A program made the position numbers and the translations under genes. A stretch of DNA of 64,000 bases from Eledone cirrhosa. Lineage: Eukaryota. Below the pieces are notes generated by a model, which saw only the letters and a program-made list of their open reading frames with translations, ran no database searches and was not told where the DNA came from. The DNA lies in assembly GCA_964016885.1 (NCBI GenBank), contig OZ024743.1, positions 49,600,001 to 49,664,000 of the forward strand, written 5' to 3'. Shown here one piece after another: positions 17,603 through 57,169 of the stretch (its first letter is position 1; each line of letters opens with the position of its first letter).

Positions 17603-17853
17603 AAAATAGAGAAGCAAGCAGAAAGATAGATAGATATATTTCTTTATTTACCATAAAGGCATAAAAAGAAGGGACAAATACAAAGGGGGAGTTTACATAC
17701 AATCGAGTAAAAAGGGTATAAAATGAAAATAATCGAAGATAACCTCAAAAGGGAGGGGACGTGATGGGGGTTGCACACACCCCCGAAAAAGTGTGCAATC
17801 CTTTGCCCGGGGAGCACATGGAGAAGGTGCTCCCCTCTCCTTCACTTCTTTAC

Positions 17854-20800
17854 CTACAGGATGGTGTACAGAGAAGGCCCATTTACACGAGCCATTCTCG
17901 CCACTATCACCCACCTTTCATAAAACTGCCTGTGGCCAAGCACCTCTCTCTCCATTCTTATCCTTCTTCCGAAGTGATATCGGAAGAAGTAGACCAGACT
18001 ATGGCCAGAGAGGAAGTTGCCTGACCTCAGACCTTTCAATCGTGTCCACCAAACAACCTCTTTCAACATGGCTATTACGCACAGAAAAACCGCCTTTGCT
18101 TCCTTTGTGAAGAGGGGAGGCGGTTTGATTGTCATCACGGACTCGGCGGTCAATTGAATCGGCGCCACCCGCGACAGCAGTTGTTCGGCGTAGCCCCACA
18201 GATCAGCCACGCCCGGACATTGCACCAATGCGTGCGCAACGGTTTCTTCGTGACGCACGCATCTAGGGCAAATCTTTTTTGAGGGACCCTGCCCGGGCGC
18301 CCGTGTCTGTAGAGCCTCTCTTGAACGGGTAGAGCCCCCTGGTAGCACTGCCAGGCTAGTGACTTCTGGAAGTTGTCCATTGGTACCGGGCCGAAAGTCC
18401 TACCGAACAGGCTGGCCAGTTCGTCCTCTTCCATGTCCAGCGACTCTCCAAGGGTGTCATCACCCCTGCTAGCCACCAACCCTCTATAGAATGATGAGGT
18501 GGATTCTCCACCGACGGCCTGGCCCGCTTGCCAGAGAGCCCTGAGCGCCTGAGCACACTCAGTGTGCCAGTCTCCCAGTTTTCCGGATTTTTGCTTGACC
18601 CAGGACTGCAGCTCGGTGAGCGAGACGAGTCTCGGAAAGGCTCGTTTCACGAACGGAGCCCACACCGGTTGACCAGTGAGGAATACTTGTAGGTGCCGTA
18701 GCCTTAATGCGTGCCTACGCATCATCAACCACGGCATCCCCAGCCCTCCTTTCGAAGGTTGTTGGCAGCAGATGGATCTTCTCACCATAGGAGGGCGCTT
18801 CTTCCAAAGAAATTGGAAGATCATGCGTTCCATGGTGGTGAGTGTTTCCTTAGGGCAAGGCACGACAGTCAGGTGGTAGTAAGTGACGGACGCTATGTAA
18901 ATGTTCGCCACCTCCGCCCGCCCTTTTAGGGACAGCTTACACTTGGCCCATTTCTGGGTTAGTGCAAACACCTTGTTTGTAACCTCGTTCCAGTGCTTTT
19001 CCACCTGGAGGTCCGGTCCAAACCAGACCCCAAGCAACTTTACCGAGCCCTCCGTCCAGTGTCCGACGACACCGTCGGGAGGCATCGGTCTGCCTCTCCA
19101 CGTTCCGAGTTGCAGCCCGATGGATTTTTCCCGGTTCAGTTTTGCTCCTGACAACCTTTCGTAATCCTCCAGTAAGGTACCGATTGCCTCGATCTCCAAG
19201 TCGGTCGATACCATTACTGTTACGTCATCGGCGTAGGCCGACACCGCTTTGCTCAATCCTGGTTCCAGGGGGATACCCTGCAACAACTCCAACTTCCTCA
19301 GTAAAGGCTCGAGAGTCAATATGTACAGAAGGGAGGAGAGAGGGCACCCCTGTCGAATGGATCGTGTGATTTCGAACGGCTTCGAAAGGTAGCCGTTCAC
19401 CTTGATCCTAGAACAGATGTGGTTGCTATGTAAGGCAGTGATCCAGCCTCTGAAAACAGGACCGAACCCAGCCGCCACTAGCACCGCATCCAGGTAACCA
19501 TGGCCGACCCTATCGAAGGCCTTAGACTGATCCAAGTTGATCAGGGCCCCACCGAAGCCGGGTTTGTTGCCAACCCTCTCTATGATATATCGCATGAGGT
19601 GGAGGTTATCGTGAATGGACCTGGATGGGATAGCACATGTCTGCGCATCTCCCACCAGGCCACCCACGACAAGCGCCAACCTCTTTGCTAACACCTTGGC
19701 CAAAATCTTTAACTCTGTGTTTAGCAGGGTTATGGGCCGAAAATTATTTATACTATCTCCCTTGTTCTCGTCCTTCCTCACCAGCGTGACTACGCCCTTG
19801 GCTACAGAACAAGGAATTCTCCCGTTCTGCTGCCAATTGCAGTAGACCGCTTCGAGGAGTTCGGAGAAGAAACCGGCATTGCTAAATAAAGTTCGTAAGG
19901 TATACCATCGAGACCTGGAGATTTGCGTCTGCTGCATTGGCTCAGCGCATCTCCGATCTCATCAGCCGAGATTGGTCCCTCGCAGGACTCTGCCTCTTCG
20001 CTCGAGAGACACGGCAGGCCGTCGAGGTATGGACCGAAATCCACGTCCCCGCCCGGACCCTCGCCTCCACCGAACAATCGGGCAAAGTGCCTTTGAAAGG
20101 TCTCGCACATCTGCTTAGGCTCCCGGATCACCCGTCCATCTTTGTCTTGCAACGACCGGATGGTGGATCGATTTCCACTCTTAGCTTCTGTCACGCGGGC
20201 CCAGCCAACGGCTTTGGCCCCCTCATTACCTAGAGCACGTATTTTACTTCGAATGACGCAGCCTTCGTGCTTTGCATCGAAAAACTGGTTCAAAGCCGTC
20301 CTCGATGCCAGCACTCTGGCCACATCTTCGCTCTTGATTGCCTCTTCTAATTTACCTGTTAATTCTTTCTCGTTTCTATTCCTATCGGCAGCTAACATCT
20401 TGCTATAACTTATTGATTCTGTTTTAATCTCTCTTTTGAGAGATGCCCACCATCGGTTGTTGACGATTGCACCCATCAACCTCTCCTTAACTAATCTGCT
20501 AATCCGGTTTCTGTAAGTCTCTTTTGCCGGTAAAGACAAATTAAGTTTCCAGTAACCGGGACCCTGTTTATGTGTTTTCTCGAGATTGACTACGCAGGTC
20601 ACTAATTTGTGATCCGTGTAGCCAACCGTGCGCATTTCTGGACAGCTTAATATGTCCCTATCCTTACTTCTAACTAAGAATCTATCTAAGTACGATCTAG
20701 ATTGACCACTGTGGTTTCTCCAAGTCCAGGTAGGCACAGTTGGAAAATCTAGTCGATATCTATCGACCAAGTTTTAACGGTCGAGTAACCCCTTGAGGCT

Positions 20801-21289
20801 GTTACACCCCCCACTATTAGGACATACTCCTGCATAGTCCCAACGTGCATCTAGGATGTCATTCCAATCCCCCGCTAGAAGCAGGGAACGCGACGTTCCC
20901 AGAAAAGTCTCTAAACGCTGGAAGAAGTCGGGCCGTTCAGCTCCGAAAGGGGAGTAGACGGCGACCAGTCTTAAGGCCGCACCTTCACTACTGCCAACGT
21001 CTAGCACCAACAAATGACCCTCCGGGTCCGAGTGCACAACCTGTACGGCAAGACCCAGGTGTTTTTGCAGCAGTACGACAACCCCACCCCCACCTCCAGC
21101 TTGACAGAGAGATGCATGCACCTCAAAGTCATCGAAGGTAGTGGCCAGCTGCCGCACGACGCTGATCCGAGTCTCACAGATAACCATTACATTTATACCA
21201 CATGACCTGAGGTCATTTAGAAGCTTTGCTTGCTTCCAAGTTGAGCCCAGGCCACGTGCATTCAAACATCCTACTCTTAACACATCCAT
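17854..21289 (-). pseudogene. Tx1 ORF2 (APE endonuclease, reverse transcriptase, zinc finger) with one in-frame stop and two 1-nt deletions
   Basis: Motifs LNARGL, ICET, GDWN, SYLDRF, TDH, NFRPITLLN, LDQSKAFDRV, RQGCPLS, YADD. TAA at 20774-20776; deletions near 19870 and 18285 relative to the copy at 53537. Confidence 0.9.
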
Positions 21290-21322
21290 GCGGGCGGCAG
21301 AGCCAAAGGAGAGTGTAGAGAC

Positions 21323-23216
21323 CTACCTTTCCGCTTCCCGGGGTTCGGGTCGCACGACTTCCATGGGGTCGGGGGTGTTGGGTGAAGGGGTGTCTTGTGG
21401 TGGTGTGGGGTCGTCAGTGTGTGGTGGGGTTGGGGTGTTTGGAGTTGTGTTGGGAAGGGGAGGGGGAAAGCTTTTTAGTAGGACGCGGTTTATGGGTTTG
21501 ACAGAGGGTGGTCCTACGTCCTCCTTAAAATCCTTTTTTAGTTTTTGGCAGAGGTTCATTGGGATCTTTATTAATTTTAAATGTGGGTAGTTTTCTGAAG
21601 AAACAAAGTTTACACCTTCGGTTTGTACCGAAGGATTATTGTTTATGAGTTCATTTAATTTATTATTGTTTCTGTTGATGTAAGTATAGTGTAATGTCTT
21701 TTTTTCGGATGGTGTGAGTGTTTCGAAGAGGCGAGGGGCAGGTTTGGTTTTGTTTGTTGCTGGAGGGGTGTTTTGTGTTTTGTTGGATTGTGTTGACATT
21801 TGGGTGGGGGTTGTTTGGCCTTGTGTGTTTTGCACATGTTTTCTTTTTTTCCTTTTAATCTGTCTGAAGGACTCCGTTTCTTCCTCCGAATTCGTTGGGT
21901 TATCTTCAGTGTTGGAGGGAAGAGGTATGTTTGCTGGTAATGTTTCCGTGTTGGTTTTCTTTGTGGGGGAGATGGATGTCACTATGTTAGACTGTGTTGT
22001 GTGTTGTGTCTGCGGTGGTTGTGTTGTTTTATTGAGTGAGGGGTTGGGTGGGCCTGTATTTTGTTTTGGGGTAATGTGTTGTGACTGTTTGTGTTGTGGT
22101 GGTGGTGTAGTTTTACTGAGGGACGGGTTGGGTGGGACTGAGTTTTGTTGTTTGTTTATCTGTGGTGGTGGTGGAGCTGGTGTTGGTAGCAGGGTTTTCT
22201 TTTTGTTGAGTTGGGGACAAGCGGCCTTCAGGTGCCCTCTGCCTGCACAGATATGACAGGACGGCCTTCTCCCCTCCACGCTAATGTTTATATACCCGTG
22301 GCCCTCTAATAGGATTCTGTCGGGTATTTGGGCGATGCGTTCAGGCTTCATTTGCACTACCAGCTCTATACCTGTTCCACTGAACGCATTGCCTGTGGTT
22401 TTCCCAATGGAAATCACGTTGTCATTCACTGGATCGATGAAGCCAGCTATGAGCCAGCAGTAGTCCACATCTGGCATCATTACATCCAGCCATATGCGTT
22501 GAGTTCTTTTACCCATATAAGATGGATAAAAGGTAAAATTTTTCGAACGAATCGGTGACAAAGCATATTTTTTGGCCGCCGATTCGTTCTTCATAATAAT
22601 TGCTAGGCTTCCATACAGTCTGTCTTTTCTTATGAAAGTGGTTTCATTAAGTACTTCTGTGAGTACTGTTTTGATATCTGCCTGAGTTGGCTGTTCAGGT
22701 TTTTTTGAAGTGTTGTTGATGGTGCGGAACACGACCGTTCGACTTTCAATGTCTTTGGTGAGTTCTTGAGGCATTTTTACCGATAAAATACCATTCTCTC
22801 CTTCACCTATGTATTGTTTGGCGTCTGTGATTCTTCGTGCCACATCTGAAATATTTTCAGGTATATATGTCAAAGATTTCTTTGTTGTTTGTGCAAATGA
22901 AATCTTGTTGACTCTGTTGTCTGCTTTGCTTTCTGTTATGGTGTTATTTTCAAATGTTATTTTTGTGTTTGTTGTGTCTTTGTTTGTGGTATTAGTATTG
23001 TCATGCAATTTTTCAAATTTTTTTTTTTCCGTTGTTGGAATCCATGTCCAGATTTGTGTTTTCATCATTTTTCTCCGCAGATTCGTCTGTTTTTATTTTA
23101 TTTTTTCCTTTCTTCTCTATGACGTTAGTTGGAAAGGAAGGGGGGACTAAAGCGTGCGAGCTTACAACTCTTACCGCTGTCCCCCCACCACTATTTTCGT
23201 TCGCTTCGTTTAACAT
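21323..23216 (-). pseudogene. Tx1 ORF1 (gag-like, zinc knuckle CHICAGRGHLKAAC); probable start at ATG 23216 with a frameshift in the A-run near 23018-23028
   Basis: 581-aa ORF 21323-23068 plus overlapping 67-aa ORF 23013-23216, which ends in the homopolymer. Confidence 0.8.
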
Positions 23217-23479
23217 TTCTGTCAGACGATTGACATTTTTTTTGCCACAAAATTTTTAAAACAGGTTTTTCACCTCTAGGAGGGGTAAAGATGCGCTGAC
23301 CCACCGCCTGACAGTTCAGACGGGGGGTCAAGCTACACAATAGTATCAAAATTAAATTTGAACTCACAAAATTTCCGCAATAAATTTGAACAAAACTTCT
23401 GCGCGAAGTGAATTACATCCACACTGTAGAACAGACGACAGTTAGATTAGCAGAAAGATAGATAGATAGATTGATAAAC

Positions 23480-34989: not shown

Positions 34990-36211
34990 TCATCATCATC
35001 ATCATCATCACCGTTTTACGTCCGTTCTTCCACGCTAGCATGGGTTAGACGGGTTGTCCTGTTGTGGGCAGTGTCTGGTCCGCTGACCATGCCTTGCTCA
35101 TACAGGAACTGATCTTGCTTGATTTCTACAGCTGGATGCCCTTCCTAACACCAACCTCATTTACAGTGAGTGCTGGGTGCTTTTTCGTGGCGCCTACACG
35201 TCCACTTTACAGTGTGGGCTGGGTGCTTTTTTGCCGTGGCACCTCCACGGCCACCTTGCGGTGGAGGGGGGGGCATATTGTTTATATGCTTCAGCATGTA
35301 CCCATGGGAGGTCGGGTACCCTGTATTACTGCGTGACGCCAGAAGTCACGGTCGTGTGTCATTGACTTTGAGAGGTGTAGTTGGGTAAGGTCGGCTTTTA
35401 TCACCTCATCCCAAGTCATCTTGGGTCTCCCCACTCCGCGGTTTCCATCAACTTCTAGTGCTCTGCACCTTTTTATGCAGCTGTCATCCTTCATACGCAT
35501 CACATGTCCATACCAGCGTAACCGCCTCTCCTGCACGCAGCATTTGATTCCTCTTATGCTCAGTCTCTCTCTCAATTCCTTTATGCTTTGTCGTTCACGT
35601 ATATTACTGTTACACATCCATCGGAGCATGCAGGCTTCGTTTCTCTCTAATCTACGTAAGTCTTCCACCTTCAGCGCCCAGGTCTCACTACCATGCAACA
35701 TCGCTGTTCGGATACACGCATCATACAGTCTGCCTTTCATTCTGAGGGAGAAGCCTTTTGCAGCTAGCAGTGGTAGTAGTTCCCTAAACTTCTTCCATCC
35801 CGTTCTTACCCTAGTTATTGTACTTTCTGAGCACCCACCTCCGTTGCTAATTCGGTCACCTAGGTAGCAGAAGCTGTCTACTGTTTCTACAGGGCCCTCC
35901 CAGAGATTGGTGGTACTTGTTTCCTGTGGCTGTTTGCTTGCTGTTTCAGCACAGCTGCTGCATGTGAATCCTACATTCTTAATTAAGCTTCCTGAGATCC
36001 CGCTACATCTCTTGTGTACCCATTGTTTGCATTTGGGGCAGAGAATGGAGTTTCTACCTACACCTTTCCTACATACTGAGCAAGGCCATTTCCCTGAGGG
36101 GATCTGGGTTCTGTTTTCTCGTCTACTTACAAGGACCTTAGTCTTTGTCATGTTGACTTTGAGGCCCTTTCTCTCTAGTCCCTGCTTCCAGGGACTAGAG
36201 AGAAAGGGCCT
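34990..36211 (-). mobile_element. 5'-truncated RTE LINE with an internal PHD-type finger, (GAT)n tail
   Basis: ORF 35291-36151: CSVC..CPKC....H..C..CSSC, FCYLGD, HGSETW, LRWYGHV, GRPK. Confidence 0.9.
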
Positions 36212-36695
36212 TTATATTTTTTCTCCAATCCATAAAACTGTCTGCTCTATAAGAAAAAGAAGCTTTCTCTGTCTATTTTTTTCTATTACTCTCGAAAACT
36301 GTCGGCAAAAATCACTGAATCCTGCTATTTCTCTTTGTTTCACTTGTTGATTTGTTGACCCACCATAATGCTATCTCTTCCACTACAACATATGACAGAT
36401 GACCCAAGCCAATAACCCAGTCCAACACACACCATAAATGTGGTTTGTGTTTAAGAAGAGCATAAACATATTCCCGCTATGAGTAAGGTATGGCATGGCC
36501 AACAGGCCAGACCCTCCAGTGGGACCACCCAGTACCACACTGTAAATGTGGTTGGTGTTAGGAAAGGTATCCAGCAGCTGTAAAAATCCCAGCCAAAACA
36601 CAGGTTCTGTTGTGAGCAAGGTTTGATGCGACCAACTAGCATGACCTTCCTCATAACGGAAAGACTTCATTTATATATATATATATATATATATA

Positions 36696-39600
36696 TCATC
36701 ATCATCGTTTAACGTTCATCTTCCACGCTAGCATGGGTTTGGACGGGAATTTACCCACTTGAGGCAAGATTGGTTGTCTTGCTCGTATAGGACGGTCTGG
36801 CGGGTTTTCTATGGTTGGATGCCCTTCCTAACACCAACCACGTTTACAGTGTGGACTGGGAGGTTTTTACCGTATTACCTACAAGGCCACATTACAGCGT
36901 GGACTGTGTTTTTTGTCGTGACACCTACACAGCCTCATTTAGGACTGGATGTTGTGGTACCAACATAACTACATCGAAAGGGGTGGGGTTAGTGGGACGG
37001 GGGTGTATTTTGGTAAGAGGTGCCTACTGACTGTAGGTTTGGCTTTGCACTTAGGCAAGGCGGGTCGCCAAAGATCTCGGTCAAGTGACATTGTCTTGGA
37101 GAGGTGTAAGTGTGTGAGGTCGGAATTTATCAAGTCATCCCAGGTTTTTCTGGGTCTGCCTACTTCGTGGCTACCGTCTATTTTTATTGCCCTGCACTTT
37201 TTTGTACAGCTGTCGTCTTTCATGCGCATCACGTGACCATACCAACGTAGTCTTCTCTCGAGTAAACAACATCTGATACCTCTTATTCCTAATTTCTCCC
37301 TTAGTTCGTTTATGCTTTGCCATTCACGTATATTACTATTACACATCCAACGGAGCATGCAAGCTTCGTTCCTCTCCAGTCTGCGTAGATCCTCTGCACA
37401 CAATGCCCATGTCTCACTGCCATGTAACATTGCTGTTCGTATGCAGGCATCATACAGCCTGCCTTTCATTTTTAGAGAAAAACCTTTAGCGGCCAATAGT
37501 GGTATAAGCTCTCTGAACCTTTTCCATCCCGTTCTGACTCTAGCTACTGTACTTTCAGAGCACCCTCCACCACTGCTGATTTTGTCACCCATGTAACGGA
37601 AGCTATCCACTATTTCTATAGAACCATCTGGGCAATGGAATGGGCTAGTATTCTGTGGGCACTTGCTGCTACTTATTGCACCTGAGCACCGGCCACATAT
37701 AAAATCTATGTTCTTAGTTAGTTTACCTGTGATCCCACTACATCTTTTATGCACCCATACTTTGCATTTGGGACATAAAATGGAGTTTCTGCCTACTCCT
37801 TTCCTACACACTGAGCATGGCCATTTCCCAGTTGGGACCAGTGCCCTATTTTCCTTCCTACATACTAGAACTTTAGTCTTAGACAGGTTAATTTTAAGGC
37901 CTTTTGATTCTAGACCATGCTTCCATATTTGGAATTTCTTCTCTAGTTCAGCCATTGATTCAGCTATAACCGTTAGATCATCAGCGTATAGGAGTTCCCA
38001 TGGGCAGCCAGTCTTGAAATCCTCTGTTATAGCCTGAAGGGCAATAATAAATAGGAGGGGGCTAAGGACGGAGCTCTGATGAACACCAACTTTTACGTTA
38101 AACTCTTCACTATATTCATTGTAAACTCTAACCTTGCTGATTGTTTCTTTATACATGTCTTGTATAGCTCTCACAAGCCATTCATCAACACCTAGTTTTC
38201 TAAGAGCCCACCAGATAATGGGGCATGGGACTCTGTCAAAGGCTTTCTCCAAGTCAACAAAAGCTAAGTATAGTGGTTTACTTTTAGCTAGGTACTTCTG
38301 TAGTTGTCGTACAATGAAAAGAGCGTTTCTGGTACTTTTACCTGACACAAACCCGAACTGCATTTCATCCAGATCAATTCACTCACTGATTAGTTGCGCT
38401 ATTACTTTTTCTGTGACCTTCATGACCTGGTCAATTAATTTAATGCCTCTATAGTTTCCCCTATCTAGAGCATCTCTTTTTACTCTTGTAGCAGTTAATG
38501 ATGCTGCTGCTACGCCAGTCCTTCGGTACGACCCCATTCTGTATGACTTGGTTTACTATCCGGGTGACCATAGTGTGTCCCACCGTTCCAGATGCTTTCA
38601 GCAACTATTTCCGAAGGCCTAGCCGCCTTGCCCATCTTCATATCTTTGATTGCCTTACTTATACTACCTTCAACTTGCACTGCTGGTCCCTCTATTGGTT
38701 CGATATGGGGGAGACTGTCTTTCTCCCATTTATTCTCCTCATTTAGTAGCCTTTCGTAGTGACACTTCCAAGCTACCTTCTTATCAGCGTCAGTGATGGC
38801 AAGTACACCATCATCATTAAGTACACACTTCTCCCCGACAATATCACAGTTTTCCTTGACACATTGCCTAGCAATCCTGAACACCTCACATTTTTGGTCC
38901 TCGCGTTGTAGAACATGCTTGAACTTTCTTTCCTCTGCTTCCCTTTTTGCGAAGTACACTTGTCTCCTAGCTTCCCTCCTGGCCACTTGATAGTCTTCTC
39001 TACTTCCCCCATCCCGCCATACTTTCGAAGCCTGCTTTTTGGCCTTGTTTGACTCCTCCACCTTACTGTTCCACCACCACGTTACTCTCCTCCTGCCTAC
39101 AGGCCTGCTCCAGCCACAGACTTCATCTGTCGCCTTCAGCAGGTTAGCTTTCAGGAATACCCACTGTTCCTCTATATTGTACGACTCTAATTGCTCTTGC
39201 TTATTGTCAAGTAATATGCTTTTAAATTTATTACTGGCTGTGGGGTCCTTTAGCTTCCATATTTTTCTCCTGAGGACAGTCCTCCTCTGTTGTCGAGTAC
39301 CTCTTGTCCTGACTATGAGGTCGCTAACTATGGGTCTATGTTGGGAGGTGCATTCTTCATGGGGGAGGGATTTAGTGTTTACAACAGACACTCTGTCACG
39401 TCTTCTGGTAAGGATATAATCTATCTGTTCTCCTGATCTATAGGTGATCAAGTGATTGTCTCGTTTTTTTAAGTTAGTGTTACAGATAGTTAGATTATTT
39501 GCGTCACAGAATTCCAGGATTCTGGAGCCTTCCTCATTTCTAGTACCAAACCCATAGCCTCCATGGATTCCGTCATAGCCGTCACAATGTTGTCCAACGT

Positions 39601-39715
39601 GACCATTTAGGTCACCAGGAATAATTATGTAGTCACTGTCGGTTACTTGGGAGGTAGTGAGCATTAATGACTCATAGAATCTGTCTTTTATAACGCCAGG
39701 CAGTCCGGATTGGGG
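36696..39715 (-). mobile_element. 3-kb RTE LINE (partial APE endonuclease, RT with PHD insert), frameshifted, flanked by (TA)n
   Basis: ORFs 38510-39664 (GDLNGHVG, QIDYIL, SQH, WWWN) and 36969-38363 (QFGF, DLEKAFD, YADD, PHD, LRWYGHV). Confidence 0.92.
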
Positions 39716-39733
39716 TATATATATATATATATA

Positions 39734-40098
39734 TCATCATCACCGTTTTACGTCCGTTCTTCCACGCTAGCATGGGTTAGACGGGTTGTCCTGTTGAGGG
39801 CAGTGTCCAGTTGGCTGATCTTGTCTTGCTCATACGGGAACTGATTCTGGCTTGATTTCTACAGCTGGATGCCCTTCCTAACACCAACCTCATTTACAGT
39901 GAGTGGTGGGTGCTTTTTTTGTCGTGGCACCTCCACGACCACTTTGCAGTGGAATGATAGGGACCCCAGTCCTATCATCTCATTTCTACAGCTGAGTAAA
40001 CTGGAGCAATATGAAATAAAGTGTCTTGCTCAAGGAAACAACACATCACCCGGTCCGAGAATTGAACTCACAACCTTTCGATTGCAAACCCAATGCTC
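39734..40098 (-). mobile_element. SINE family B: tRNA head, CORE-like domain, RTE-derived tail
   Basis: Reverse complement contains GAGTTCAATTC, CCTTGAGCAAGACACTTTATTTC, then the RTE 3' UTR ending in (GAT)n. Confidence 0.82.
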
Positions 40099-42912: not shown

Positions 42913-45900
42913 ACATGTTAACTGTACTGTCTACCATGTCAACTGTACTGTCTACCATGTCAACTGTACTGTCTACCGTGTCAACTGTACTGTCTACCGT
43001 ATTAACTGTACTTTCTACCATGTTAACTGTACCGTCTACCGTGTTAACTGTACCGTCTACCGTGTTAACTGTACTTCTGCCGTGTTAACTGTACTGTCTA
43101 CCATGTTAACTGTACTGTCTACCATGTTAACTGTACTGTCTACCGTGTCAACTGTACTGTCTACCGTGTTAACTGTACTTTCTACCGTGTTAACTGTACC
43201 GTCTACCGTGTTAACTGTACCGTCTACTGTGTTAACTGTACTTCTGCCGTGTTAACTGTACTGTCTACCGTGTTAACTGTACCGTCTACCGTGTTAACTG
43301 TACCGTCTACCGTGTTAACTGTACTGTCTGCCGTGTTAACTGTACTTCTGCCGTGTTAACTGTACCGTCTACCGTGTTAACTGTACCGTCTACCGTGTTA
43401 ACTGTACCGTCTACCGTGTTAACTGTACCGTCTACCGTGTTAACTGTACCGTCTACCGTGTTAACTGTACCGTCTACCGTTTTAACTGCACCGTCTACCA
43501 TGTTAACTGTACCGTCTACCGTGTTAACTGCACCGTCTACCGTGTTAACTGTACTGTCTACCGTGTCAACTGTACCATCTACCGCGTTAACTGTACCGTC
43601 TACTGTGTTAACTGTACCGTCTACCGTGTTAACTGTACCGTCTACCGTGTTAACTGTACCGTCTACCGTGTTAACTGTACCGTCTGCCGTGTTAACTGTA
43701 CTGTCTGCCGTGTTAACTGTACCGTCTACCGGGTTAACTGTACCGTCTACCGTGTTAACTGTATCGTCTACCATGTCAACTGTAGTCTACCATGTTAACT
43801 GTACTGTCTACCATGTTAACTGTACCGTCTACCATGTTAACTGTACCGTCTACCGTGTCAACTGTACCGTCTACCGTGTTAACTGTACCGTCTACCATGT
43901 TAACTGTACCGTCTACCGTGTTAACTGTACCGTCTACCGTGTTAACTGTACCGTCTACCGTGTTAACTGTACCGTCTACCGTGTTAAATGTACCGTCTAC
44001 CGTGTTAACTGTATCGTCTACCATGTTAACTGTACTGTCTACCATGTCAACTGTACCATCTACCATGTCAACTGTACCATCTACCATGTTAACTGTACTG
44101 TCTACCATGTTAACTGTACTGTCTACCGTCTTAACTGTACTGTCTACCGTGTTAACTGTACTGTCTACCGTGTTAACTGTACCGTTACCTTGTTAACTGT
44201 ACCGTCTACCGTGTTAACTGTACCGTCTACCGTGTTAACTGTACCGTCTGCCGTGTTAACTGTACCGTCTGCCGTGTTAACTGTACTGTCTGCCGTGTTA
44301 ACTGTACCGTCTGCCGTGTTAACTGTACTGTCTGCCGTGTTAACTGTACCGTCTACCGTGTTAACTGTACCGTCTACCGTGTTAACTGTACCGTCTGCCG
44401 TGTTAACTGTACCGTCTGCCGTGTTAACTGTACTGTCTGCCGTGTTAACTGTACCGTCTGCCGTGTTAACTGTACCGTCTGCCGGGTTAACTGTACCGTC
44501 TACCATGTTAACTGTACCGTCTACCGTGTTAACTGTACCGTCTACCGTGTTAACTGTACCGTCTACCATGTCAACTGTAGTCTACCATGTTAACTGTACT
44601 GTCTACCATGTTAACTGTACCGTCTACCGTGTTAACTGTACCGTCTACCGTGTTAACTGTACCGTCTACCATGTCAACTGTAGTCTACCATGTTAACTGT
44701 ACTGTCTACCATGTTAACTGTACCGTCTACCGTGTTAACTGTACCGTCTACCGTGTTAACTGTACCGTCTACCATGTCAACTGTAGTCTACCATGTTAAC
44801 TGTACTGTCTACCATGTTAACTGTACCGTCTACCATGTTAACTGTACCGTCTACCATGTTAACTGTACCGTCTACCATGTTAACTGTACCGTCTACTGTG
44901 TCAACTGTACCGTCTACCGTGTTAACTGTACCGTCTACCGTGTTAACTGTACCGTCTACCATGTCAACTGTAGTCTACCATGTTAACTGTACTGTCTACC
45001 ATGTTAACTGTACCGTCTACCGTGTTAACTGTACCGTCTACCGTGTTAACTGTACCGTCTACCATGTCAACTGTAGTCTACCATGTTAACTGTACTGTCT
45101 ACCATGTTAACTGTACCGTCTACCGTGTTAACTGTACCGTCTACCGTGTTAACTGTACCGTCTACCATGTCAACTGTAGTCTACCATGTTAACTGTACTG
45201 TCTACCATGTTAACTGTACCGTCTACCATGTTAACTGTACCGTCTACCATGTTAACTGTACCGTCTACCATGTTAACTGTACCGTCTACTGTGTCAACTG
45301 TACCGTCTACCGTGTTAACTGTACCGTCTACCATGTTAACTGTACCGTCTACCGTGTTAACTGTACCGTCTACCGTGTTAACTGTACCGTCTACCGTGTT
45401 AACTGTACCGTCTACCGTGTTAACTGTACCGTCTACCGTGTTAACTGTATCGTCTACCATGTTAACTGTACTGTCTACCATGTTAACTGTACTGTCTACC
45501 ATGTCAACTGTACCATCTACCATGTTAACTGTACTGTCTACCATGTTAACTGTACTGTCTACCGTGTTAACTGTACTGTCTACCGTCTTAACTGTACTGT
45601 CTACCTTGTTAACTGTACTGTCTACCGTGTTAACTGTACCGTTACCGTGTTAACTGTACTGTCTACCGTGTCAACTGTACCGTCTACCGCGTTAACTGTA
45701 CCGTCTACCGTGTTAACTGTACCGTCTACCGTGTTAACTGTACCGTCTACCGTGTTAACTGTACCGTCTGCCGTGTTAACTGTACCGTCTGCCGTGTTAA
45801 CTGTACTGTCTGCCGTGTTAACTGTACCGTCTGCCGCGTTAACTGTACCGTCTACCGTGTTAACTGTACTGTCTACCGTGTCAACTGTACCGTCTACCGT

Positions 45901-48100
45901 GTTAACTGTACCGTCTACTGTGTTAACTGTACTGTCTACCATGTTAACTGTACTGTCTACCATGTTAACTGTATTGTCTACCATGTCAACTGTAGTCTAC
46001 CATGTTAACTGTACCGTCTACTGTGTTAACTGTACTGTCTACCATGTTAACTGTACTGTCTACCATGTTAACTGTACCATCTACCATGTTAACTGTACTG
46101 TCTACCATGTTAACTGTACTGTCTACCATGTTAATTGTACCGTCTACCATGTTAACTGTACTGTCTACCATGTTAACTGTACCATCTACCGTGTTAACTG
46201 TACTGTCTACCATGTTAACTGTACCATCTACCGTGTTAACTGTACCGTCTACCGTGTTAACTGCACCGTCTACCGTGTTAACTGTCCTGTCTACCGTGTT
46301 AACTGTACCGTGTACCGTCTACCGTGTTAACTGTACCGTGTACCGTCTACCGTGTTAACTGTACCGTCTACCATGTCAACTGTACCGTCTACCGTGTTAA
46401 CTGTACCGTCTACCGTGTTAACTGTACCATCTACCGTGTTAACTGTACCGTCTACCGTGTTAACTGTACCGTCTACCGTGTTAACTGTACCGTCTACCGT
46501 GTTAACTGTACTGTGTACCATTTTAACTGTCCTGTCTACCGTGTTAACTGTACCGTGTACCGTCTACCGTGTTAACTGTACCGTGTACCGTCTACCATGT
46601 TAACTGTACTGTCTACCATGTTAACTGTACTGTCTACCGTGTTAACTGTACCGTCTACCGTTTTAACTGTACCGTCTACCGTGTTAACTGTACCGTCTAC
46701 CGTGTTAACTGTACCGTCTACCGTGTTAACTGTACTGCCTACCGTGTTAACTGTACCGTCTACCGTGTTAACTGTACCGTCTACCGTGTTAACTGTACCG
46801 TCTACCGTGTTAACTGTACTGCCTACCGTGTTAACTGTCCTGTCTACCGTGTTAACTGTACCGTGTACCGTGTTAACTGTACCGTGTACCGTCTACCATG
46901 TTAACTGTACTGTCTACCATGTTAACTGTACTGTCTACCATGTTAATTGTACCGTCTACCATGTTAACTGTACTGTCTACCATGTTAACTGTACCATCTA
47001 CCGTGTTAACTGTACTGTCTACCATGTTAACTGTACCATCTACCGTGTTAACTGTACCGTCTACCGTGTTAACTGCACCGTCTACCGTGTTAACTGTCCT
47101 GTCTACCGTGTTAACTGTACCGTGTACCGTCTACCGTGTTAACTGTACCGTGTACCGTCTACCGTGTTAACTGTACCGTCTACCATGTCAACTGTACCGT
47201 CTACCGTGTTAACTGTACCGTCTACCGTGTTAACTGTACCATCTACCGTGTTAACTGTACCGTCTACCGTGTTAACTGTACCGTCTACCGTGTTAACTGT
47301 ACTGTGTACCATTTTAACTGTCCTGTCTACCGTGTTAACTGTACCGTGTACCGTCTACCGTGTTAACTGTACCGTGTACCGTCTACCATGTTAACTGTAC
47401 TGTCTACCATGTTAACTGTACTGTCTACCGTGTTAACTGTACCGTCTACCGTTTTAACTGTACCGTCTACCGTGTTAACTGTACCGTCTACCGTGTTAAC
47501 TGTACCGTCTACCGTGTTAACTGTACTGCCTACCGTGTTAACTGTACCGTCTACCGTGTTAACTGTACCGTCTACCGTGTTAACTGTACCGTCTACCGTG
47601 TTAACTGTACTGCCTACCGTGTTAACTGTCCTGTCTACCGTGTTAACTGTACCGTGTACCGTGTTAACTGTACCGTGTACCGTCTACCATGTTAACTGTA
47701 CTGTCTACCATGTTAACTGTACTGTCTACCGTGTTAACTGTACCGTCTACCGTGTTAACTGTACTGTCTACCATGTTAACTGTACTGTCTACCGTGTTAA
47801 CTGTACTGTCTACCGTGTTAACTGTACTGTCTACCATGTTAACTGTACTGCTTACCGTGTTAACTACTGTCTACCGTGTTAACTGTACTGTTTACCGTGT
47901 TAACTGTACTGTCTACCATGTTAACTGTACTGTCTACCATGTCAACTGTACTATCTACCGTGTTAACTGTACCGTGTTAACTGTACTGTCTACCGTGTCA
48001 ACTGTCCTGTCTACCATGTCAACTGTCCTGTCTACTGTGTCAACTGTACTGTCTACCGTGTTAACTGTACTGTCTACCGTGTTAACTGTACTGTCTACCA
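42913..48100. repeat. 21-bp satellite CTACC(G/A)TGTTAACTGTAC(C/T)GT, about 5.2 kb, with higher-order blocks
   Basis: Tandem periodicity; produces repetitive ORFs on both strands; ends 31 bp before the exon acceptor. Confidence 0.98.
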
Positions 48101-49060: not shown

Positions 49061-49123
<63 letters not shown>

Positions 49124-49521: not shown

Positions 49522-50870
49522 ACTAGAGAACTAGAGAAGAAATTCGAAACATGGAAGCATGGCCTAGAATCAAGAGGACTTAAAGTTAACTTGTCTAAGA
49601 TTAAAGTTCTAGTTTGTAGAAATGAAAATAGGGCACAGGTGCCCTCAGGGAAATCGCCATGCTCAGTGTGTAGGAAAGGAGTAGGCAGATATTCCATTTT
49701 ATGTCCCAAATGCAAAGTATGGGTACATAAAAGATGTAGTGGGATCACAGGTAAACTATCTAAGAACAAAGACTTTATATGTGGCCGATGCTCAGGTGCA
49801 ATAAATAGCAAGTGTCCACAGGATACTAGCTCCTTCTATTGCCCAGATGGTTCTATAGAAATAGTAGACATTTTCCGTTACCTGGGTGACGAAATCAGCA
49901 GTGGAGGAGGGTATTCTGAAAGTACAGTAGCCAGAGTCAGAACGGGATGGAAAAAGTTCAGAGAGTTTATACCGCTGTTGGCCACGAAAGGTTTCTCTCT
50001 AAAAATGAAAGCAGATTGTATGATGCTTGTATACGAACAGCAATGTTACATGGCAGTGAGACATGGGCATTACGTGCAGAGGACCTGCGCAGACTGGAAA
50101 GGAATGAAGCATGCATGCTCCATTGGATGTGTAATAGTAATATACGTGAACGGCAAAGCATAAATGAACTAAGTGAGAAATTAGGAATAAGAGGGATCAG
50201 ATGCTGTTTACTTGAGAGAAGACTACGTTGGTATGGCCATGTGATGCGCATGAAAGACGACAGCTGTATAAAAAGGTGTAGGGCGATCAAAATTGATGGT
50301 AGTTACGGAGTAGATAGACCCAGAAAAACTTTGGACGATTTAATAAAATCCGATCTTACACGCTTGCACCTCTCTAAGACAATGTCTCTGGACCGAGATC
50401 TTTGGCGCTACGCAGTAATACAGAAGACCCGCCTTGCCTATGTACAAAGCGAAACCTACAGTCAGTAGGCACCTCTTAACCAAATATACACTACAATCCA
50501 CTACCTTTACCCTATCCTCCCACTCCCACCAACACCACCCTCTCTCTGTAAAGTTGGTACCACAACATCCAGTCCAAATAAATGAGATAATGAGATCGAG
50601 ATTGTGTAGGTATCATGACAAAAAAAACACGCAGTCCAGGCTGTAATGTGGCCGTGTAGGTAACATGGTAAAAAGTTCCCAGTTCCACACTGTAAATGTG
50701 GTTGGTGTTAGGAAGGGCATCCAGCCGTAGAAAACCTGCCAGATAGTCCTATATGAGTGAGACACGGTCACCCGATTAACCTTGACTCAAATTGGGACAA
50801 CTCCCGTCTAACCCATACTAGCGTGGAAAATGGACGTTAAACGATGAAGATGATGATGATGATGATGATA
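49522..50870 (+). mobile_element. 5'-truncated RTE LINE (PHD type), frameshifted, (GAT)n tail
   Basis: ORFs 49504-50163 and 49947-50468 are homologous to 36969-38363. Confidence 0.9.
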
Positions 50871-50929
50871 ATATATATACATACAGATGATAATATATAT
50901 ACATACAGATGATAATATATACATACAGA

Positions 50930-51115: not shown

Positions 51116-51769
51116 TATATATACATACACACATATCATGGGCTTCTACACTGTTTTTGTCTACTAAATTTCATTCACAAGATATTGGTTAACCCAATGC
51201 TACAGTAGAAGGTACTTGCTCAAGGAACCAAGGAACAGGATTTAACTTGGAATCATATAGCTGTGAAGTGATCTTAAACACAGATCTCCACACATAAACA
51301 TACTGAACAGTCCTGCTTTCTCTAGTTTTCTTCTCTTATATAATTGCATCTTTCTCCCCACCCTTCAGTCCTAAATCTCTGAACCTTTTCAACCAATTAA
51401 GATCTTCATTAGAAGTTATTTAAATTATGTTTGCTTTTACAGTTACTAGTGTCTTTTAGTGTCTGTGACTAATTCTATTTAATCTCATGGTTGACTTAAC
51501 TCACTTGGTGGTTAGTATTCCAGTTAGATATAACTACATGACTGAATACACTCCAGTAAACATCTGTAAAAGTTATAGTAGGTTATATATTTATCTCACA
51601 ATCTCTGCTGTAATGAAGCTGATTATAGGTGATGATGACAATTGTCATACTACATTTGAAGGAAGTTTACGGTAAAGATATAGAGATAAAACACTATATT
51701 AACTACATATCCAACAAGTTTACTGTAGACAGATGAAAAGACACTACACTATATGTTAATTACATATCG

Positions 51770-52060
51770 AGGAAATTTACAGTAGATAGTAATGTGGAGA
51801 CACTACACTATATATATGCTACATATCCAGGAAATTTACAGTAGATAGTAATGTGGAGACACTACACTATATATATATGCTACATATCCAGGAAATTTAC
51901 AGTAGATAGTAATGTGGAGACACTATACTAACTACACTATATATATATGCTACATATCCAGGAAATTTACAGTAGATAGTAATGTGGAGACACTACACTA
52001 ACTACACTATATATATATGCTACATATCCAGGAAATTTACAGTAAATAGTAATGTGGAGA
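51770..52060. repeat. 59-70-bp minisatellite GGAAATTTACAGTAGATAGTAATGTGGAGACACTACAC(TA)nTGCTACATATCCA
   Basis: About 4.5 tandem copies, with more diverged copies upstream. Confidence 0.88.
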
Positions 52061-52318
52061 GATATAAGAACTGAAACTCTTATTTCGCTATTATCTAATC
52101 AACTCCCATAATTGTCAACTGTGTTACCATAGAACTGTGTCAGTGAACAGATCATGAACAGTGAAATGAAAATTTTGACATCAAGAAATTTATGATACAT
52201 GTGAAGTTAACAGTTTTGTGAGTACACAAGTAAAACTAACAAGAAAAAGTAACAAGTTTCAAACTTGACCTTAAGTAATATATATATATATATATATTAC
52301 TTTTCTTGTTAGTTTTAC

Positions 52319-52463
52319 AGGTTTAGTTCAGATCTAGCTGTTGAAACAGCCAGAGCTCACCCGTCGGGGTCCTGACTTTTTCCCTATTACCCACTCTACT
52401 ACCCTAAGTATCGAGTACTCTGGTTCATTATGGTCCACCTGGTTCCTTACTACACTTTTTTTG

Positions 52464-52467
<4 letters not shown>
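52319..52467 (+). mobile_element. Family X element abutting (TA)n
   Basis: Shared with 40798-40891 and 61522-61672, more distantly with 14919-15060 and 29665-29850. Confidence 0.7.
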
Positions 52468-52505
<38 letters not shown>

Positions 52506-52771
52506 CTGTATGTGGTTGATGGACAAGAGAAATGAGTACTCAATACAAAAGTAGTTTAAATATTCATTTATTTTGGCTAAATAGTCTATTTAGCCAAAAT
52601 AAATGAATATATATATGTGTGTGTGTGTGTGTATATATTAATTCAAAACATTATAGAGTTAACTATGTCTAATACATAATCATCTCAATGAAAAGATAAG
52701 GTATATTAATAAATTATCTACTCAAAGAAATTATAAAATATTCCCCCAAATGAAATTTTGGCTTAAGTTTA

Positions 52772-52822
<51 letters not shown>

Positions 52823-53496
52823 CAGAAAATGCACACAGAAAAGAGTTACATAAGATGAACAGACAGCTGTATTGTTACCTCATTAGCCACTTTGCTGGCA
52901 TGGAATTTTGTACATTTAGGTGGTATTGTACTGATGATACCAGTTTGTGCAACAGATGGAGAATCACTCGGTTGGTAAGATGCATGTGAAACGATAACAA
53001 AATAGAAACAAATACATAACAGATAAATACATAAAAATATAGAATTAGTAGACAAGAGACAGCCTATAAAATGTGCTGTTAAGTCATGTTACTCTGGAGT
53101 TTCATCTATACTCACAGGGTTATCAGACATCACTAAACACACGGTATATATTACATTGTATTGCAATACAATTGTGTTTGCTAGTAAGAATTGGTTAGAT
53201 AACACATCTCTTGCACAAAAGAATGAAATCAATCGACCATAATAAGATTTATTACAGAGAAATCTGTTTTAGAAATCTGTTATTATTCTGTGAAATTCTC
53301 TCAACAAAAATCCTGTTTACGTTGATGTCAAGAAAGATAACTCCACATAAAAGGATTGATTACAGAATTATAAACACAGAGATGTGGCTTCTTGTTGTAG
53401 TGGTAGTGGTTGTTATGGTAGAGTGTATATGTAGCTGTATATGTAATACTGTATCTCTGTGTGTGTAGCTGTATATACTGTGTGTAACAGTATGTA

Positions 53497-53536
<40 letters not shown>

Positions 53537-53538
<2 letters not shown>

Positions 53539-56500
53539 TCTTAGTTAGAAGTAAGGATAGGGACATATTAAGCTGTCCAGAAATGCGCACGGTTGGCTAT
53601 ACGGATCACAAATTAGTGACCTGCGTAGTCAATCTCGAGAAAACACATAAACAGGGTCCCGGTTACTGGAAACTTAATTTGTCTTTACCGGCAAAAGAGA
53701 CTTACAGAAACCGGATTAGCAGATTAGTTAAGGAGAGGTTGACGGGTGCAATCGTCAACAACCGATGGTGGGCATCTCTCAAAAGAGAGATTAGAACAGA
53801 ATCAATAAGTTATAGCAAGATGTTAGCTGCCGATAGGAATAGAAACGAGAAAGAATTGACAGGTAAATTAGAGGCAATCAAGAGCGAAGATGTGGCCAGA
53901 GTGCTGGCATCGAGGACGGCCTTGAACCAGTTTTTCGATGCAAAGCACAAAGACTGCGTCATTCGAAGTAAAATACGTGCTCTAGGTAATGAGGGGGCCA
54001 AAGCCGTTGGCTGGGCCCGCGTGACAGAAGCTAAGAGTGGAAATCGATCCACCATCCGGTCGTTGCAAGACGAGGATGGACGGGTGATCCGGGAGCCTAA
54101 GCAGATGTGCGAGGCCTTTCAAAGGCACTTTGCCCGATTATTCGGGGGAGGCGAGGGTCCGGGCGGGGACGTGGATTTCGGTCCATACCTTGACGGCCTG
54201 CCGCGTCTCTCGAGCGAAGAGGCAGAGTCCTGCGAGGGACCAATCTTGGCTGCTGAGATCGGAGATGCGCTGAGCCAATGCAGCAGATGCAAATCTCCAG
54301 GTCTCGATGGTATACCATACAAACTTTATTTAGCAATGCCGGTCTTCTTCTCCGAACTCCTCAAAGCGGTCTACTGCAATTGGCAGCAGAACGGGAGAAT
54401 TCGTTGTTCTGTAGCCAAGGGCGTAGTCTCGCTGGTGAGGAAGGACGAGAACAAGGGGGATAGTATAAATAATTTTCGGCCCATAACCCTGCTAAACACA
54501 GAGTTAAAGATTCTGGCCAAGGAGTTAGCAAAGAGGTTGGTGCTTGTCGTGGGTAGCCTGGTGGGAGATGCGCAGACATGTGTTATCCCATCCAGGTCCA
54601 TTCACGATAACCTCCACCTCATGCGATACATCATAGAGAGGGTTGGCAACAAACCCGGCTTCGGTGGGGCCCTGATCAACTTGGATCAGTCTAAGGCCTT
54701 CGATAGGGTCAACCATGGTTACCTGGATGCGGTGCTAGCGGCGGCTGGGTTCGGTCCTGTTTTCAGAGGCTGGATCACTGCCTTACATAGCAACCACATC
54801 TGTTCTAGGATCAAGGTGAACGGCTACCTTTCGAAGCCGTTCGAAATCACACGATCCATTCGACAGGGGTGCCCTCTCTCCTCCCTTCTGTACGTATTGA
54901 CTCTCGAGCCTTTACTGAGGAAGTTAGAGTTGTTGCAGGGTATCCCCCTGGAACCAGGATTGAGCAAAGCGGTGTCGGCCTACGCCGATGACGTAACAGT
55001 AATGGTATCGACCGACTCGGAGATCGAGGCGATCGGTACCTTACTGGAGGATTACGAAAGGTTGTCAGGAGCGAAACTGAACCGGGAAAAATCCATCGGG
55101 CTGCAACTCGGAATGTGGAGAGGCAGACCGATGCCTCCCGACGGTGTCGTCGGACACTGGACGGAGAGCCCGGTGAAGTTGCTTGAGGTCTGGTTTGGAC
55201 CGGACCTCCAGGTGGAAAAGAACTGGGACGAGGTTACGAACAAGGTGTTTGCACTAACCCAGAAATGGGCCAAGTGTAAGCTGTCCCTAAAAGGCCGGGC
55301 GGAGGTGGCGAACATTTACATAGCGTCCGTCACTTACTACCGCCTGACTGTCGTGCCTTGCCCTAAGGAAACACTCACCACCATGGAACGCATGCTCTTC
55401 CAATTTCTTTGGAAGAAGCGCCCTCCTATGGTGAGAAGATCCATCTGCTGCCAACAACCTTCGAAAGGAGGGCTGGGGATGCCGTGGTTGATGATGCGTA
55501 GGCACGCATTAAGGCTACGGCACCTACATGTATTCCTCACTGGTCAACCGGTGTGGGCTCCGTTCGTGAAACGAGCCTTTCCGAGACTCGTCTCGCTCAC
55601 CGAGCTGCAGTCCTGGGTCAAGCAAAGATCCGGAAAACTGGGAGACTGGCACACTGAGTGTGCTCAGGCGCTCAGGGCTCTCTGGCAAGCGGGCCAGGCC
55701 ATCGGTGGAGAATCCACCTCATCATTCTATAGAGGGCTGGTGGCTAGCAGGGGCGATGACACCCTTGGAGACTCGCTGGACATGGAAGAGGACGAACTGG
55801 CCAGCCTGTTCGGTAGGACTTTCGGCCCGGGACCAATGGACAACTTCCAGAAGTCACTAGCCTGGCAGTGCTACCGGGGGGCTCTACCCGTTCGAGAGAG
55901 GCTCTACAGACACGGGCGCCCGGGCAGGGATCCCTCGAAAAAGATTTGCCCTAGATGCGTGCGTCACGGAGAAACCGTTGCGCACGCATTGGTGCAATGT
56001 CCGGGCGTGGCTGATCTGTGGGGCTACGCCGAACGACTGCTGTCGCGGGTGGGCCGATTCAATTGACCACCAAGTCCGTGATAACAATCAAACCGCCTCC
56101 CCTCTTCACAAAGGAAGCAAAGGCGGTTTTTCTGTGCGTAATAGCCATGTTGAAAGAGGTTGTTTGGTGGACACGATTGAAAGGTCTGAGGTCAGGCAAC
56201 TTCCTCTCTGGCCATAGTCTGGTCTACTTCTTCCGATATCACTTCGGAAGAAGGATAAGAATGGAGAGAGAGGTGCTTGGCCACAGGCAGTTTAATGAAA
56301 GGTGGGTGATAGTGGCGAGAATGGCTCGTGTAAATGGGCCTTCTCTGTATACCATCCTGTAGGTAAAGAAGTGAAGGAGAGGGGAGCACCTTCTCCATGT
56401 GCTCCCCGGGCAAAGGATTGCACACTCTTTCGGGGGTGTGTGCAACCCCCATCACGTCCCCTCCCTTTTGAGGTTTTCGATTATTTTCATTTTATACCCT

Positions 56501-56576
56501 TTTTACTCGATTGTATGTAAACTCCCCCTTTGTATTTGTCCCTTCTTTTTATGCCTTTATGGTAAATAAAGAAATA
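53537..56576 (+). mobile_element. 5'-truncated Tx1 copy (same family as 17637-23448) inside (TATC)n
   Basis: 827-aa ORF nearly identical to the first copy's ORF2; one frameshift near 56050; same 3' end AATAAAGAAATA followed by TATCTATC. Confidence 0.93.
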
Positions 56577-57169
56577 TATCTATCTATCTATCTATATATA
56601 TATATAATTCTTTGTCTCTCTCTGTCTGTTCCTTATACATTCTTAAACGGATCAACCAAATCAAATCAAATTTTATAAGATAATAGTATTAGACCCCCGG
56701 ATTAACAACATGTAATCTTTACTGTGAGTGTGTGTTTGCGTGTTCGTTAGGTACGTTAGGCCTTAGTAGGTTGCACAGAGAATTAAACACACACACACAT
56801 CTATACATACATATGTGGTGATTGACAAGTATATGTGTGTGAGTATATGTGTGTGTGAGTATACATACATTTCTGTGACGACTGACATAAACACACACAC
56901 ACACACATCTAAACAGAGAGAGACACAGAGGGAGAGGCAGAGAGAGAGAGAGAGAGGCTGTTATACAGAGAGAGATACAATTAAAGTGTGAGATATTTAG
57001 AGAGAGAGAGTGACGTCCCACAAAAGTCTAGAATCGGCTTAAACTATAGATCAAAGTATCAGTTGAATGTTCAACAACATTGCGTTAGCTTTTACAAAGC
57101 GTATATATGTATATGTGTATATATATATATACATATATATACTTGGAACTCTTTTAACAATCTTTTGAT

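What the first reader, a model, noticed from the sequence alone, without database searches (positions are those of the whole stretch)
17617..56595. Tx1-clade retrotransposon family apparently site-specific for (TATC)n/(GATA)n
Seen: two independent insertions (full-length 17637-23448 minus; truncated 53537-56576 plus) both end ...AATAAAGAAATA directly followed by TATCTATC, with the same strand and register. Copy 1 has an exact 20-bp TSD that includes three GATA units, so the repeat is target rather than element tail. Copy 2 has (TATC)n on both sides. Other LINEs here mostly sit in the far more abundant (TA)n. Known: Tx1 APE endonucleases repeatedly evolved target specificity (Kibi for (TC)n, Koshi for (TTC)n, Keno for U2 snRNA, Dewa for tRNA arrays). 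Inference: a GATA-repeat-specific family that I do not recognise. The lesions in the two copies are complementary, so most of ORF2 can be reconstructed.
Basis: partly seen in the sequence, partly recalled or inferred. Interest (0 to 1): 0.78.

Follow-up and report, generated by a model that had tools for sequence, protein, structure and literature searches.

The report
Jumping gene aimed at GATA repeats
These two inserts belong to a young family of about 1,500 LINE retrotransposon copies that almost always sit at one position in the motif C|TATCT of GATA-type repeats, while a sister lineage in the same genome sits in (ATT)n, a natural pair for testing how such elements likely change their DNA target.

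Summary
Observation confirmed; interpretation supported with two corrections. Both copies are real (97.5% identical) and belong to an L1-group LINE with 1,465 exact 3' ends in the genome; 1,279 of them (87%) continue AAAT-N|TATCT in one register. The repeat is target, not tail: 29 of 29 unambiguous TSDs (13-23 bp, mostly 16-21) start TAT[C/A]T, 25 of 29 follow a C that is not duplicated, and empty paralogous sites exist. Correction 1: one TATC unit can suffice; the target is a short motif enriched in (TATC)n, with (TA)n a weak second choice (about 880-fold lower per site). Correction 2: no reconstruction is needed, intact natural copies exist. Beyond the finding: about 29,700 sister-family ends split into a TATC clade and an (ATT)n clade, and 24 of the first 30 long (TATC)n arrays examined abut this lineage. 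Host is probably an octopod (closest named protein: Argonauta, 63%). Tx1 membership fits the ORF1 type and the targeting, but no named Tx1 sequence was available for a tree. No GATA-targeting Tx1 was found in the searchable literature; Repbase and Dfam could not be checked. New variant of a known kind.

The parts
17637..23448 (-). Copy 1, full-length element (5,812 bp), broken ORFs
   Evidence: 96.3% identical to intact copy L106 over its length
23449..23468 (-). 5' copy of the 20-bp TSD; preceded by C at 23469, which is not duplicated
17617..17636 (-). 3' copy of the 20-bp TSD, starting TATCT directly after the junction base A
21323..23216 (-). ORF1 (one CCHC knuckle; RRM/CCHC-like by language-model features), frameshifted near 23029 in this copy
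17854..21289 (-). ORF2: APE endonuclease, RT (YADD), C-terminal zf-RVT-like CCHC; stop at 20776-20774, frameshifts near 19871 and 18286
17637..17853 (-). 3' UTR ending AATAAAGAAAT plus one junction base; no poly(A)
53537..56576 (+). Copy 2, 5'-truncated (3,040 bp), frameshift near 56053
53497..53538 (+). (TATC)n array on the 5' side of copy 2; its last 18-19 nt can serve as TSD
56577..56595 (+). (TATC)4 plus TAT on the 3' side of copy 2 (TSD inside the repeat, length not uniquely defined)
39445..39553 (-). Empty paralogue, inside another LINE family, of the single C|TATCT site that is occupied in L052

Best explanation
A young L1-group (likely Tx1-type) LINE family inserts at one position of a short motif, C|TAT[C/A]T, that is concentrated in (TATC)n/(GATA)n repeats, duplicating mostly 16-21 bp of target, likely by target-primed reverse transcription from a nick made by its own endonuclease. 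Shown: fixed register, TSDs that begin at the motif, empty sites that already hold the motif, no poly(A), no added tail in most copies. Inferred: the endonuclease nicks the GATA strand at 5'-AGATA^G-3'; the transcript runs past the AATAAA signal a few bases into the flanking TATC of the donor site, these bases pair with the nicked GATA strand, and reverse transcription starts upstream of any poly(A); the second strand is cut 16-21 nt further on. Every insertion duplicates the motif, so later copies pile up beside earlier ones. A sister clade uses the same anatomy on (ATT)n.
For: 1,279 of 1,465 3' ends continue AAATN|TATCT. In the first 68 copies on contig C1 (67 parsed) 52 continue TATCTAT and 5 TATATAT, against background frequencies of 1.5e-4 and 1.3e-2: about 5,000-fold and 6-fold, so about 880-fold per site. 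29 of 29 unambiguous TSDs, drawn from 103 copies, start TAT[C/A]T; lengths 13-23, 26 of 29 within 16-21. The base before the TSD is C in 22 of 23 TATCT sites (background 133 of 868) and 3 of 6 TATAT sites (253 of 7,125); it lies outside the duplication, so RNA-primer pairing cannot select it. Empty paralogues: a single-unit site in another LINE (occupied in L052, empty at window 39553-39445 and in L177) and a 30-bp minisatellite with empty neighbouring units (L124/L125). 36 of 46 anchored TSDs begin directly after the junction base; 0 of 67 have poly(A). The junction base follows subfamily: 21 of 21 copies with one diagnostic base have C, against 13 of 62 others (Fisher p 4e-11), and is A in 20 sites whose target has C, so it is element-templated. 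Endonuclease and RT catalytic motifs are intact in natural copies and align to human L1 ORF2p at E 4e-51. Pairing of element RNA with the nicked strand is proposed for SART1Bm and R1Bm (PMC7265360, passages); the Tx1L endonuclease alone nicks its target (PMC1950540, passages).
Against: No biochemistry: the nick position and the RNA 3' end are inferred. 186 of 1,465 ends do not continue AAATN|TATCT, and 10 of 67 in the sample do not. 10 of 46 anchored TSDs are offset by 2-20 nt, mostly inside slipped repeats, with a few (L059, L153) showing 2-6 extra bases that could be short additions. The unambiguous-TSD set under-represents long arrays by design and holds one duplicated pair (L038/L039). The background is only 20 stretches of 10 kb and its TATCT count is inflated by one base context (489 of 868 after T). 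13 copies outside the C subfamily also have junction C, which is not explained.
Confidence: 0.85

Rival explanations
1. The endonuclease is only loosely AT-selective and the specificity comes from pairing of the RNA's 3' TATC bases with the nicked strand; nicks that cannot pair are not extended.
For: The invariant positions (+1 to +5) are those that would pair; the junction base is element-templated; the hairpin loop that reads the target in L1 has L1's length here (9 residues) and is similar in TATC and ATT families.
Against: The C at -1 lies outside the paired stretch and is kept in non-repeat sites (22 of 23 against 15%). The endonuclease differs more between TATC and ATT clades (60% identity) than the RT (74%), although that is usual for these domains. 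Both mechanisms may act together.
Confidence: 0.25
2. (TATC)n is an encoded tail that seeds microsatellites, as the (GAT)n tails of other LINEs in this window do.
For: 24 of the first 30 (TATC)4+ array starts on C1 abut a member of this lineage; a few junctions carry extra bases.
Against: The motif is present in the 5' TSD copy and in empty paralogues; many copies have one unit or none at the 3' end (29 of 67); 48 of 65 have two or more units at the 5' side; 8 of the 24 abutting array starts touch only a 5' end.
Confidence: 0.04
3. Insertion is unspecific among AT-rich repeats and copies in TATC are merely retained.
For: 6 of 67 copies start TATAT; insertions in repeats are likely neutral.
Against: TATATAT is 85 times more frequent than TATCTAT yet holds a tenth of the copies; the register is fixed to one base; copies are young (median 1.1% from the majority sequence); the sister clade sits in (ATT)n in the same genome.
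Confidence: 0.02
4. The element targets TATC as described but is a separate L1-group lineage, not a member of the Tx1 clade.
For: ORF2 is short (1,145 aa); beyond one 40%-identical group the next relatives are about 30% identical and unnamed; loop length is L1-like, not Tx1L-like.
Against: ORF1 is of the RRM/CCHC type that PMC5203782 (passages) links to Tx1 in non-mammalian animals; no Transposase_22 hit; microsatellite targeting is known in Tx1.
Confidence: 0.2

Closest known systems
Kibi (TC)n, Koshi (TTC)n and crocodilian Tx1 families in (TTCC)n/(TTTC)n (PMC4494074, section 15 and passages)
   Same: APE-type L1-group LINE inserted in a microsatellite; related families use different repeat units; meets that paper's criterion of more than 20% of flanks by a wide margin.
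   Different: Target is TATC/GATA (and ATT/AAT in the sister clade), not a pure pyrimidine repeat; host is probably an octopod; one unit can suffice. Kinship with Kibi/Koshi was not testable.
Tx1L of Xenopus (PMC1950540, passages)
   Same: Specific target; a purine follows the inferred nick.
   Different: Tx1L targets a DNA transposon and has an 11-residue hairpin loop; this family has 9 residues between the anchors, as human L1.
Human L1 (PDB 8sxt etc.)
   Same: ORF2 order EN-linker-RT-CCHC, catalytic residues, TSDs of similar length (length for L1 recalled).
   Different: No poly(A), no Transposase_22 ORF1, target C|TATCT instead of TT|AAAA.
SART1Bm / R1Bm (R1 clade; PMC7265360, passages)
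   Same: Repeat targeting by an APE endonuclease with proposed RNA-target pairing at initiation.
   Different: Other clade and targets; SART1Bm needs three or more repeat units and a poly(A) tail.
L1-Tx1 families in the Octopus vulgaris repeat annotation (PMC13282606, part 1 of 3 and passages)
   Same: 13 recently active L1-Tx1 families (421 insertions) are counted there; this family or relatives may be among their consensus sequences.
   Different: The main text has no occurrence of 'target'; no target preference is described. Library and supplements not seen.

Membership tests
L1 group of non-LTR retrotransposons | ORF2 with N-terminal APE endonuclease and L1-type RT | tested here: met
   Pfam Exo_endo_phos and RVT_1; best PDB match human L1 ORF2p, E 4e-51 over residues 7-866, far above R2
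L1 group of non-LTR retrotransposons | Two ORFs, 5' truncation, TSDs | tested here: met
   41 of 67 full length, the rest truncated, internally deleted or with an unresolved 5' end
Tx1 clade | RT phylogeny groups with named Tx1 families (Tx1L, Keno, Kibi, Koshi) | not testable with these tools
   No protein named as a Tx1 family was returned; Repbase/Dfam not available
Tx1 clade | Type I ORF1 (RRM plus CCHC knuckle) rather than Transposase_22 | tested here: met
   One CX2CX4HX4C in ORF1; Atlas look-alikes at 0.90-0.92 carry zf-CCHC, RRM_1 or ZCCHC3 RNA-binding domains; no Pfam hit for ORF1 itself, so the RRM is predicted only; criterion from PMC5203782
Target-specific Tx1 families (criterion of Kojima 2015) | One sequence type in more than 20% of flanks | tested here: met
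   1,279 of 1,465; criterion read
Kibi/Koshi lineage | Target (TC)n, (TTC)n, (TTCC)n or (TTTC)n | tested here: not met
   1 of 67 continues TCTC, 58 TATC, 6 TATA
Mammalian-type L1 | Poly(A) tail, Transposase_22 ORF1, TTTT/AA site | tested here: not met
   0 of 67 poly(A); no Transposase_22; site C|TATCT

The most novel reading that the evidence does not exclude
An undescribed octopod radiation of L1/Tx1-group LINEs has split into a GATA-targeting and an AAT-targeting clade through endonuclease change, has filled most long GATA arrays of the genome, and by duplicating its target at each jump helps make and lengthen the microsatellites it lives in; intact members of both clades give a ready pair of microsatellite-specific nicking enzymes.
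Probability: 0.35. Interest if true: 0.78.

Novelty: new variant of a known kind. Interest (0 to 1): 0.62.

Why it matters
How APE endonucleases acquire and switch targets is still open: loop grafts gave only partial changes of specificity (PMC1950540). Here two sister clades with 60% identical endonucleases, intact copies and thousands of insertions each use different short repeats, which makes domain swaps and nicking assays direct. It adds GATA and AAT repeats to the targets found in the papers I could read for this group. It also means that many long GATA microsatellites in this genome are element junctions, which matters for marker design and for repeat annotation.

Tried and rejected
Named Tx1 references: three protein searches and two cluster look-ups gave no protein named as a Tx1 family. 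Metagenome scan gave 4 distant loci (24-36%), not used. Single-sequence structure prediction of the endonuclease failed (pLDDT 34), no fold search done. The careful protein tree did not finish; the quick tree was used. The DNA tree of copies timed out; diagnostic columns were used instead. Orthologous empty allele of L046: flanks were not covered by the four runs, so no result. No RNA holder listed. An exact 26-nt pattern for paralogues of the L052 site matched only itself; the DNA search of its flank hit a downstream repeat; empty paralogues were then found among loci already held. TSDs of the ATT clade could not be resolved outside the repeat. Literature: searches found no GATA/TATC-targeting LINE; Kojima and Fujiwara 2004 was seen only as a citation; Figure 3 and the supplements of PMC4494074, which list targets of further Tx1 families, could not be read and may bear on novelty. 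The scan's own findings held nothing.

Full report
Observation. Copy 1 lies at 17637-23448 on the minus strand between two exact copies of TATCTATCTATCTTTCTGCT. Copy 2 lies at 53537-56576 on the plus strand with (TATC)n on both sides. They are 97.5% identical. Pfam finds an APE endonuclease, RT and zf-RVT. Lesions differ between the two copies.

Family size and 3' flank. The window belongs to a 3.0-Gb genome. An exact 23-nt piece of the 3' end occurs 1,465 times; 1,279 of these continue AAAT, one base, then TATCT. I took the first 68 matches on contig C1 as a sample not chosen by flank (67 parsed, L149 dropped) and 36 further best-scoring copies. In the 67, the four bases after the junction base are TATC in 58, TATA in 6, other in 3; 52 continue TATCTAT and 5 TATATAT. 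In 20 arbitrarily placed 10-kb stretches these heptamers have frequencies 1.5e-4 and 1.3e-2, so TATCTAT is favoured about 880-fold per site over TATATAT. The background is small, so the factor is approximate.

Target or tail. From 103 copies, 29 distinct sites have a TSD that runs out of the repeat into other sequence. All 29 start TAT[C/A]T; lengths are 13-23 bp, 26 within 16-21. In 21 of the 29 at most one perfect TATC unit follows the insertion point on the 3' side and many have none before it (for example L046, L052, L101, L066), so an array is not required; this set under-represents arrays by design, and in the 67-copy sample 48 of 65 have two or more units on the 5' side and 38 of 67 on the 3' side. 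The base before the TSD is C in 25 of 29 and is not duplicated. Empty paralogous sites exist: L052 sits in a single C|TATCT inside another LINE, whose empty copies are at window 39553-39445 and in L177; L124/L125 sit in one unit of a 30-bp minisatellite whose neighbours are empty (the other spanning hits there were simple repeats or self-matches and were not counted). 36 of 46 anchored TSDs start directly after the junction base and none of 67 has poly(A). The tail reading is rejected. By contrast the other LINE fragments in the window carry a (GAT)n or (CAT)n tail at the 3' end only.

Anatomy and age. Of 61 full-length copies, 12 have an open ORF2 and 3 (L106, L110, L126) have both ORFs open from the first ATG. 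ORF2 is 1,145 aa with intact catalytic motifs and matches human L1 ORF2p best among solved structures. ORF1 has one CCHC knuckle and resembles RRM/CCHC proteins. Median distance from the majority sequence over the last 2 kb is 1.1% in 83 copies; 41 of 67 sampled copies are full length. The closest named protein is from Argonauta hians (63%), so the host is probably an octopod. Contigs of three other coded organisms align through the element end and TATCT, and one shows an (ATCT)n loose end, so the preference is probably not confined to this species; that rests on one contig each.

Mechanism. Established TPRT chemistry puts the first nick at the start of the TSD: 5'-AGATA^G-3' on the GATA strand (inferred). 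The junction base (A or C) follows subfamily (21 of 21 against 13 of 62) and is A at 20 sites where the target has C, so it comes from the element RNA. The AATAAA signal ends 6 nt before the junction; cleavage 10-30 nt after such a signal (recalled) would fall in the flanking repeat. An RNA ending in target-like bases could pair with the nicked strand, which would explain exact 3' junctions without poly(A) and the invariant first five bases; similar pairing is proposed for SART1Bm and R1Bm (PMC7265360, passages). The C at -1 cannot be selected by pairing and points to protein recognition (22 of 23 against 133 of 868). The relative weight of enzyme and pairing is untested.

A radiation with two targets. 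A degenerate 3'-end pattern has 29,682 matches (control 5). Of 15,279 forward matches, 6,425 are followed by TATCTAT and 5,097 by ATTATTAT; the remaining quarter was not classified. In the first 30, 28 had lineage-type ends falling into these classes or close variants and two (L202, L203) did not. A quick IQ-TREE tree of ORF2 residues 540-1140 (49 rows; SH-aLRT only; rows under 330 residues left out) puts 10 TATC rows and 8 ATT rows on opposite sides of a branch with support 100, with the Argonauta protein outside both; which target is ancestral is not resolved, and four unnamed proteins of unknown target fall inside the group. Full-length ATT copies have (ATT)n on both sides (9 of 9 with one 5' end type, plus those listed), but their TSD could not be delimited. 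Identity between clades is 60% in the endonuclease and 74% in the RT; the hairpin loop has 9 residues in both. Lineage members are often nested or tandem: 9 of 65 sampled copies have another lineage 3' end within 120 nt upstream.

Occupancy. The genome has about 27,700 starts of (TATC)4 or longer. Of the first 30 on C1, 24 abut a lineage member (7 at a 3' end, 8 at a 5' end, 9 both), or 21 of 27 after merging three pairs in the same array. This is one region of one contig. It can mean near-saturation of existing arrays, or growth of arrays after TSD duplication; unoccupied arrays behind another repeat (L296, L314) show that some arrays arise independently.

Known systems. Microsatellite-targeted Tx1 families are known for (TC)n, (TTC)n, (TTCC)n and (TTTC)n (PMC4494074, passages and section 15); its main text has no GATA, TATC or ATCT, but its figure and supplements were not readable. 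An Octopus vulgaris annotation counts 13 recently active L1-Tx1 families without describing targets (PMC13282606, part 1 and passages). Passages of PMC5035012, PMC8869645 and PMC10294476 added nothing on such targets. Nine searches found no GATA-targeting LINE, but subscription journals, Repbase and Dfam were out of reach. It works like Kibi/Koshi; membership of the Tx1 clade is likely from ORF1 type (PMC5203782, passages) but untested by phylogeny.

Verdict. Real, strongly supported, a new target variant of a known strategy. Interest 0.62, mostly for the two-target sister pair and the high occupancy.

Noticed in passing
L233, L246, L252 and others (G000 C1): Sister clade inserted in (ATT)n; about 5,100 forward-strand ends. 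Full-length copies start exactly after (ATT)n with no unique TSD; L235 has only one ATT at its 3' side, so the TSD may be short.
   Followed up: partly
L214, L216, L235, L248, L251, L252 versus L233: ATT-clade copies share ORF2 (95-99%) but carry two or more unrelated 5' halves, switching near position 2126: 5' UTR/ORF1 exchange.
   Followed up: no
L106:609-6011: ORF1 and ORF2 are in the same frame, separated by a single TAG and 11 codons before the ORF2 ATG; read-through or re-initiation possible.
   Followed up: no
window 36695-39950 (-), 35001-36211, 49528-50862, 58820-60519, 61702-62956: Another LINE family with a PHD finger inside ORF2, after the RT, and a (GAT)n tail.
   Followed up: partly
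L052, L187, window 39445-39553: Two different TATC families have the same 3' flank start, a single C|TATCT inside the PHD-bearing LINE: a recurrent insertion site.
   Followed up: partly
L037, L121, L130, L138, L155 (occupied); L296, L314 (unoccupied): A shared upstream sequence precedes TATC runs, suggesting that another repeat family supplies target arrays.
   Followed up: no
G000 C1:168102626-168114291, 139189102-139194969, 147464145-147469998: Head-to-tail copies at about 5.8-kb spacing.
   Followed up: no
window 1-12875 and 42916-48099: Large satellites with 31/59-bp and 21-bp periods.
   Followed up: no
P0005-P0037: A large unnamed group of 1,145-1,160-aa ORF2 proteins about 40% identical is the nearest outside relative in the tree; host and target unknown.
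   Followed up: no
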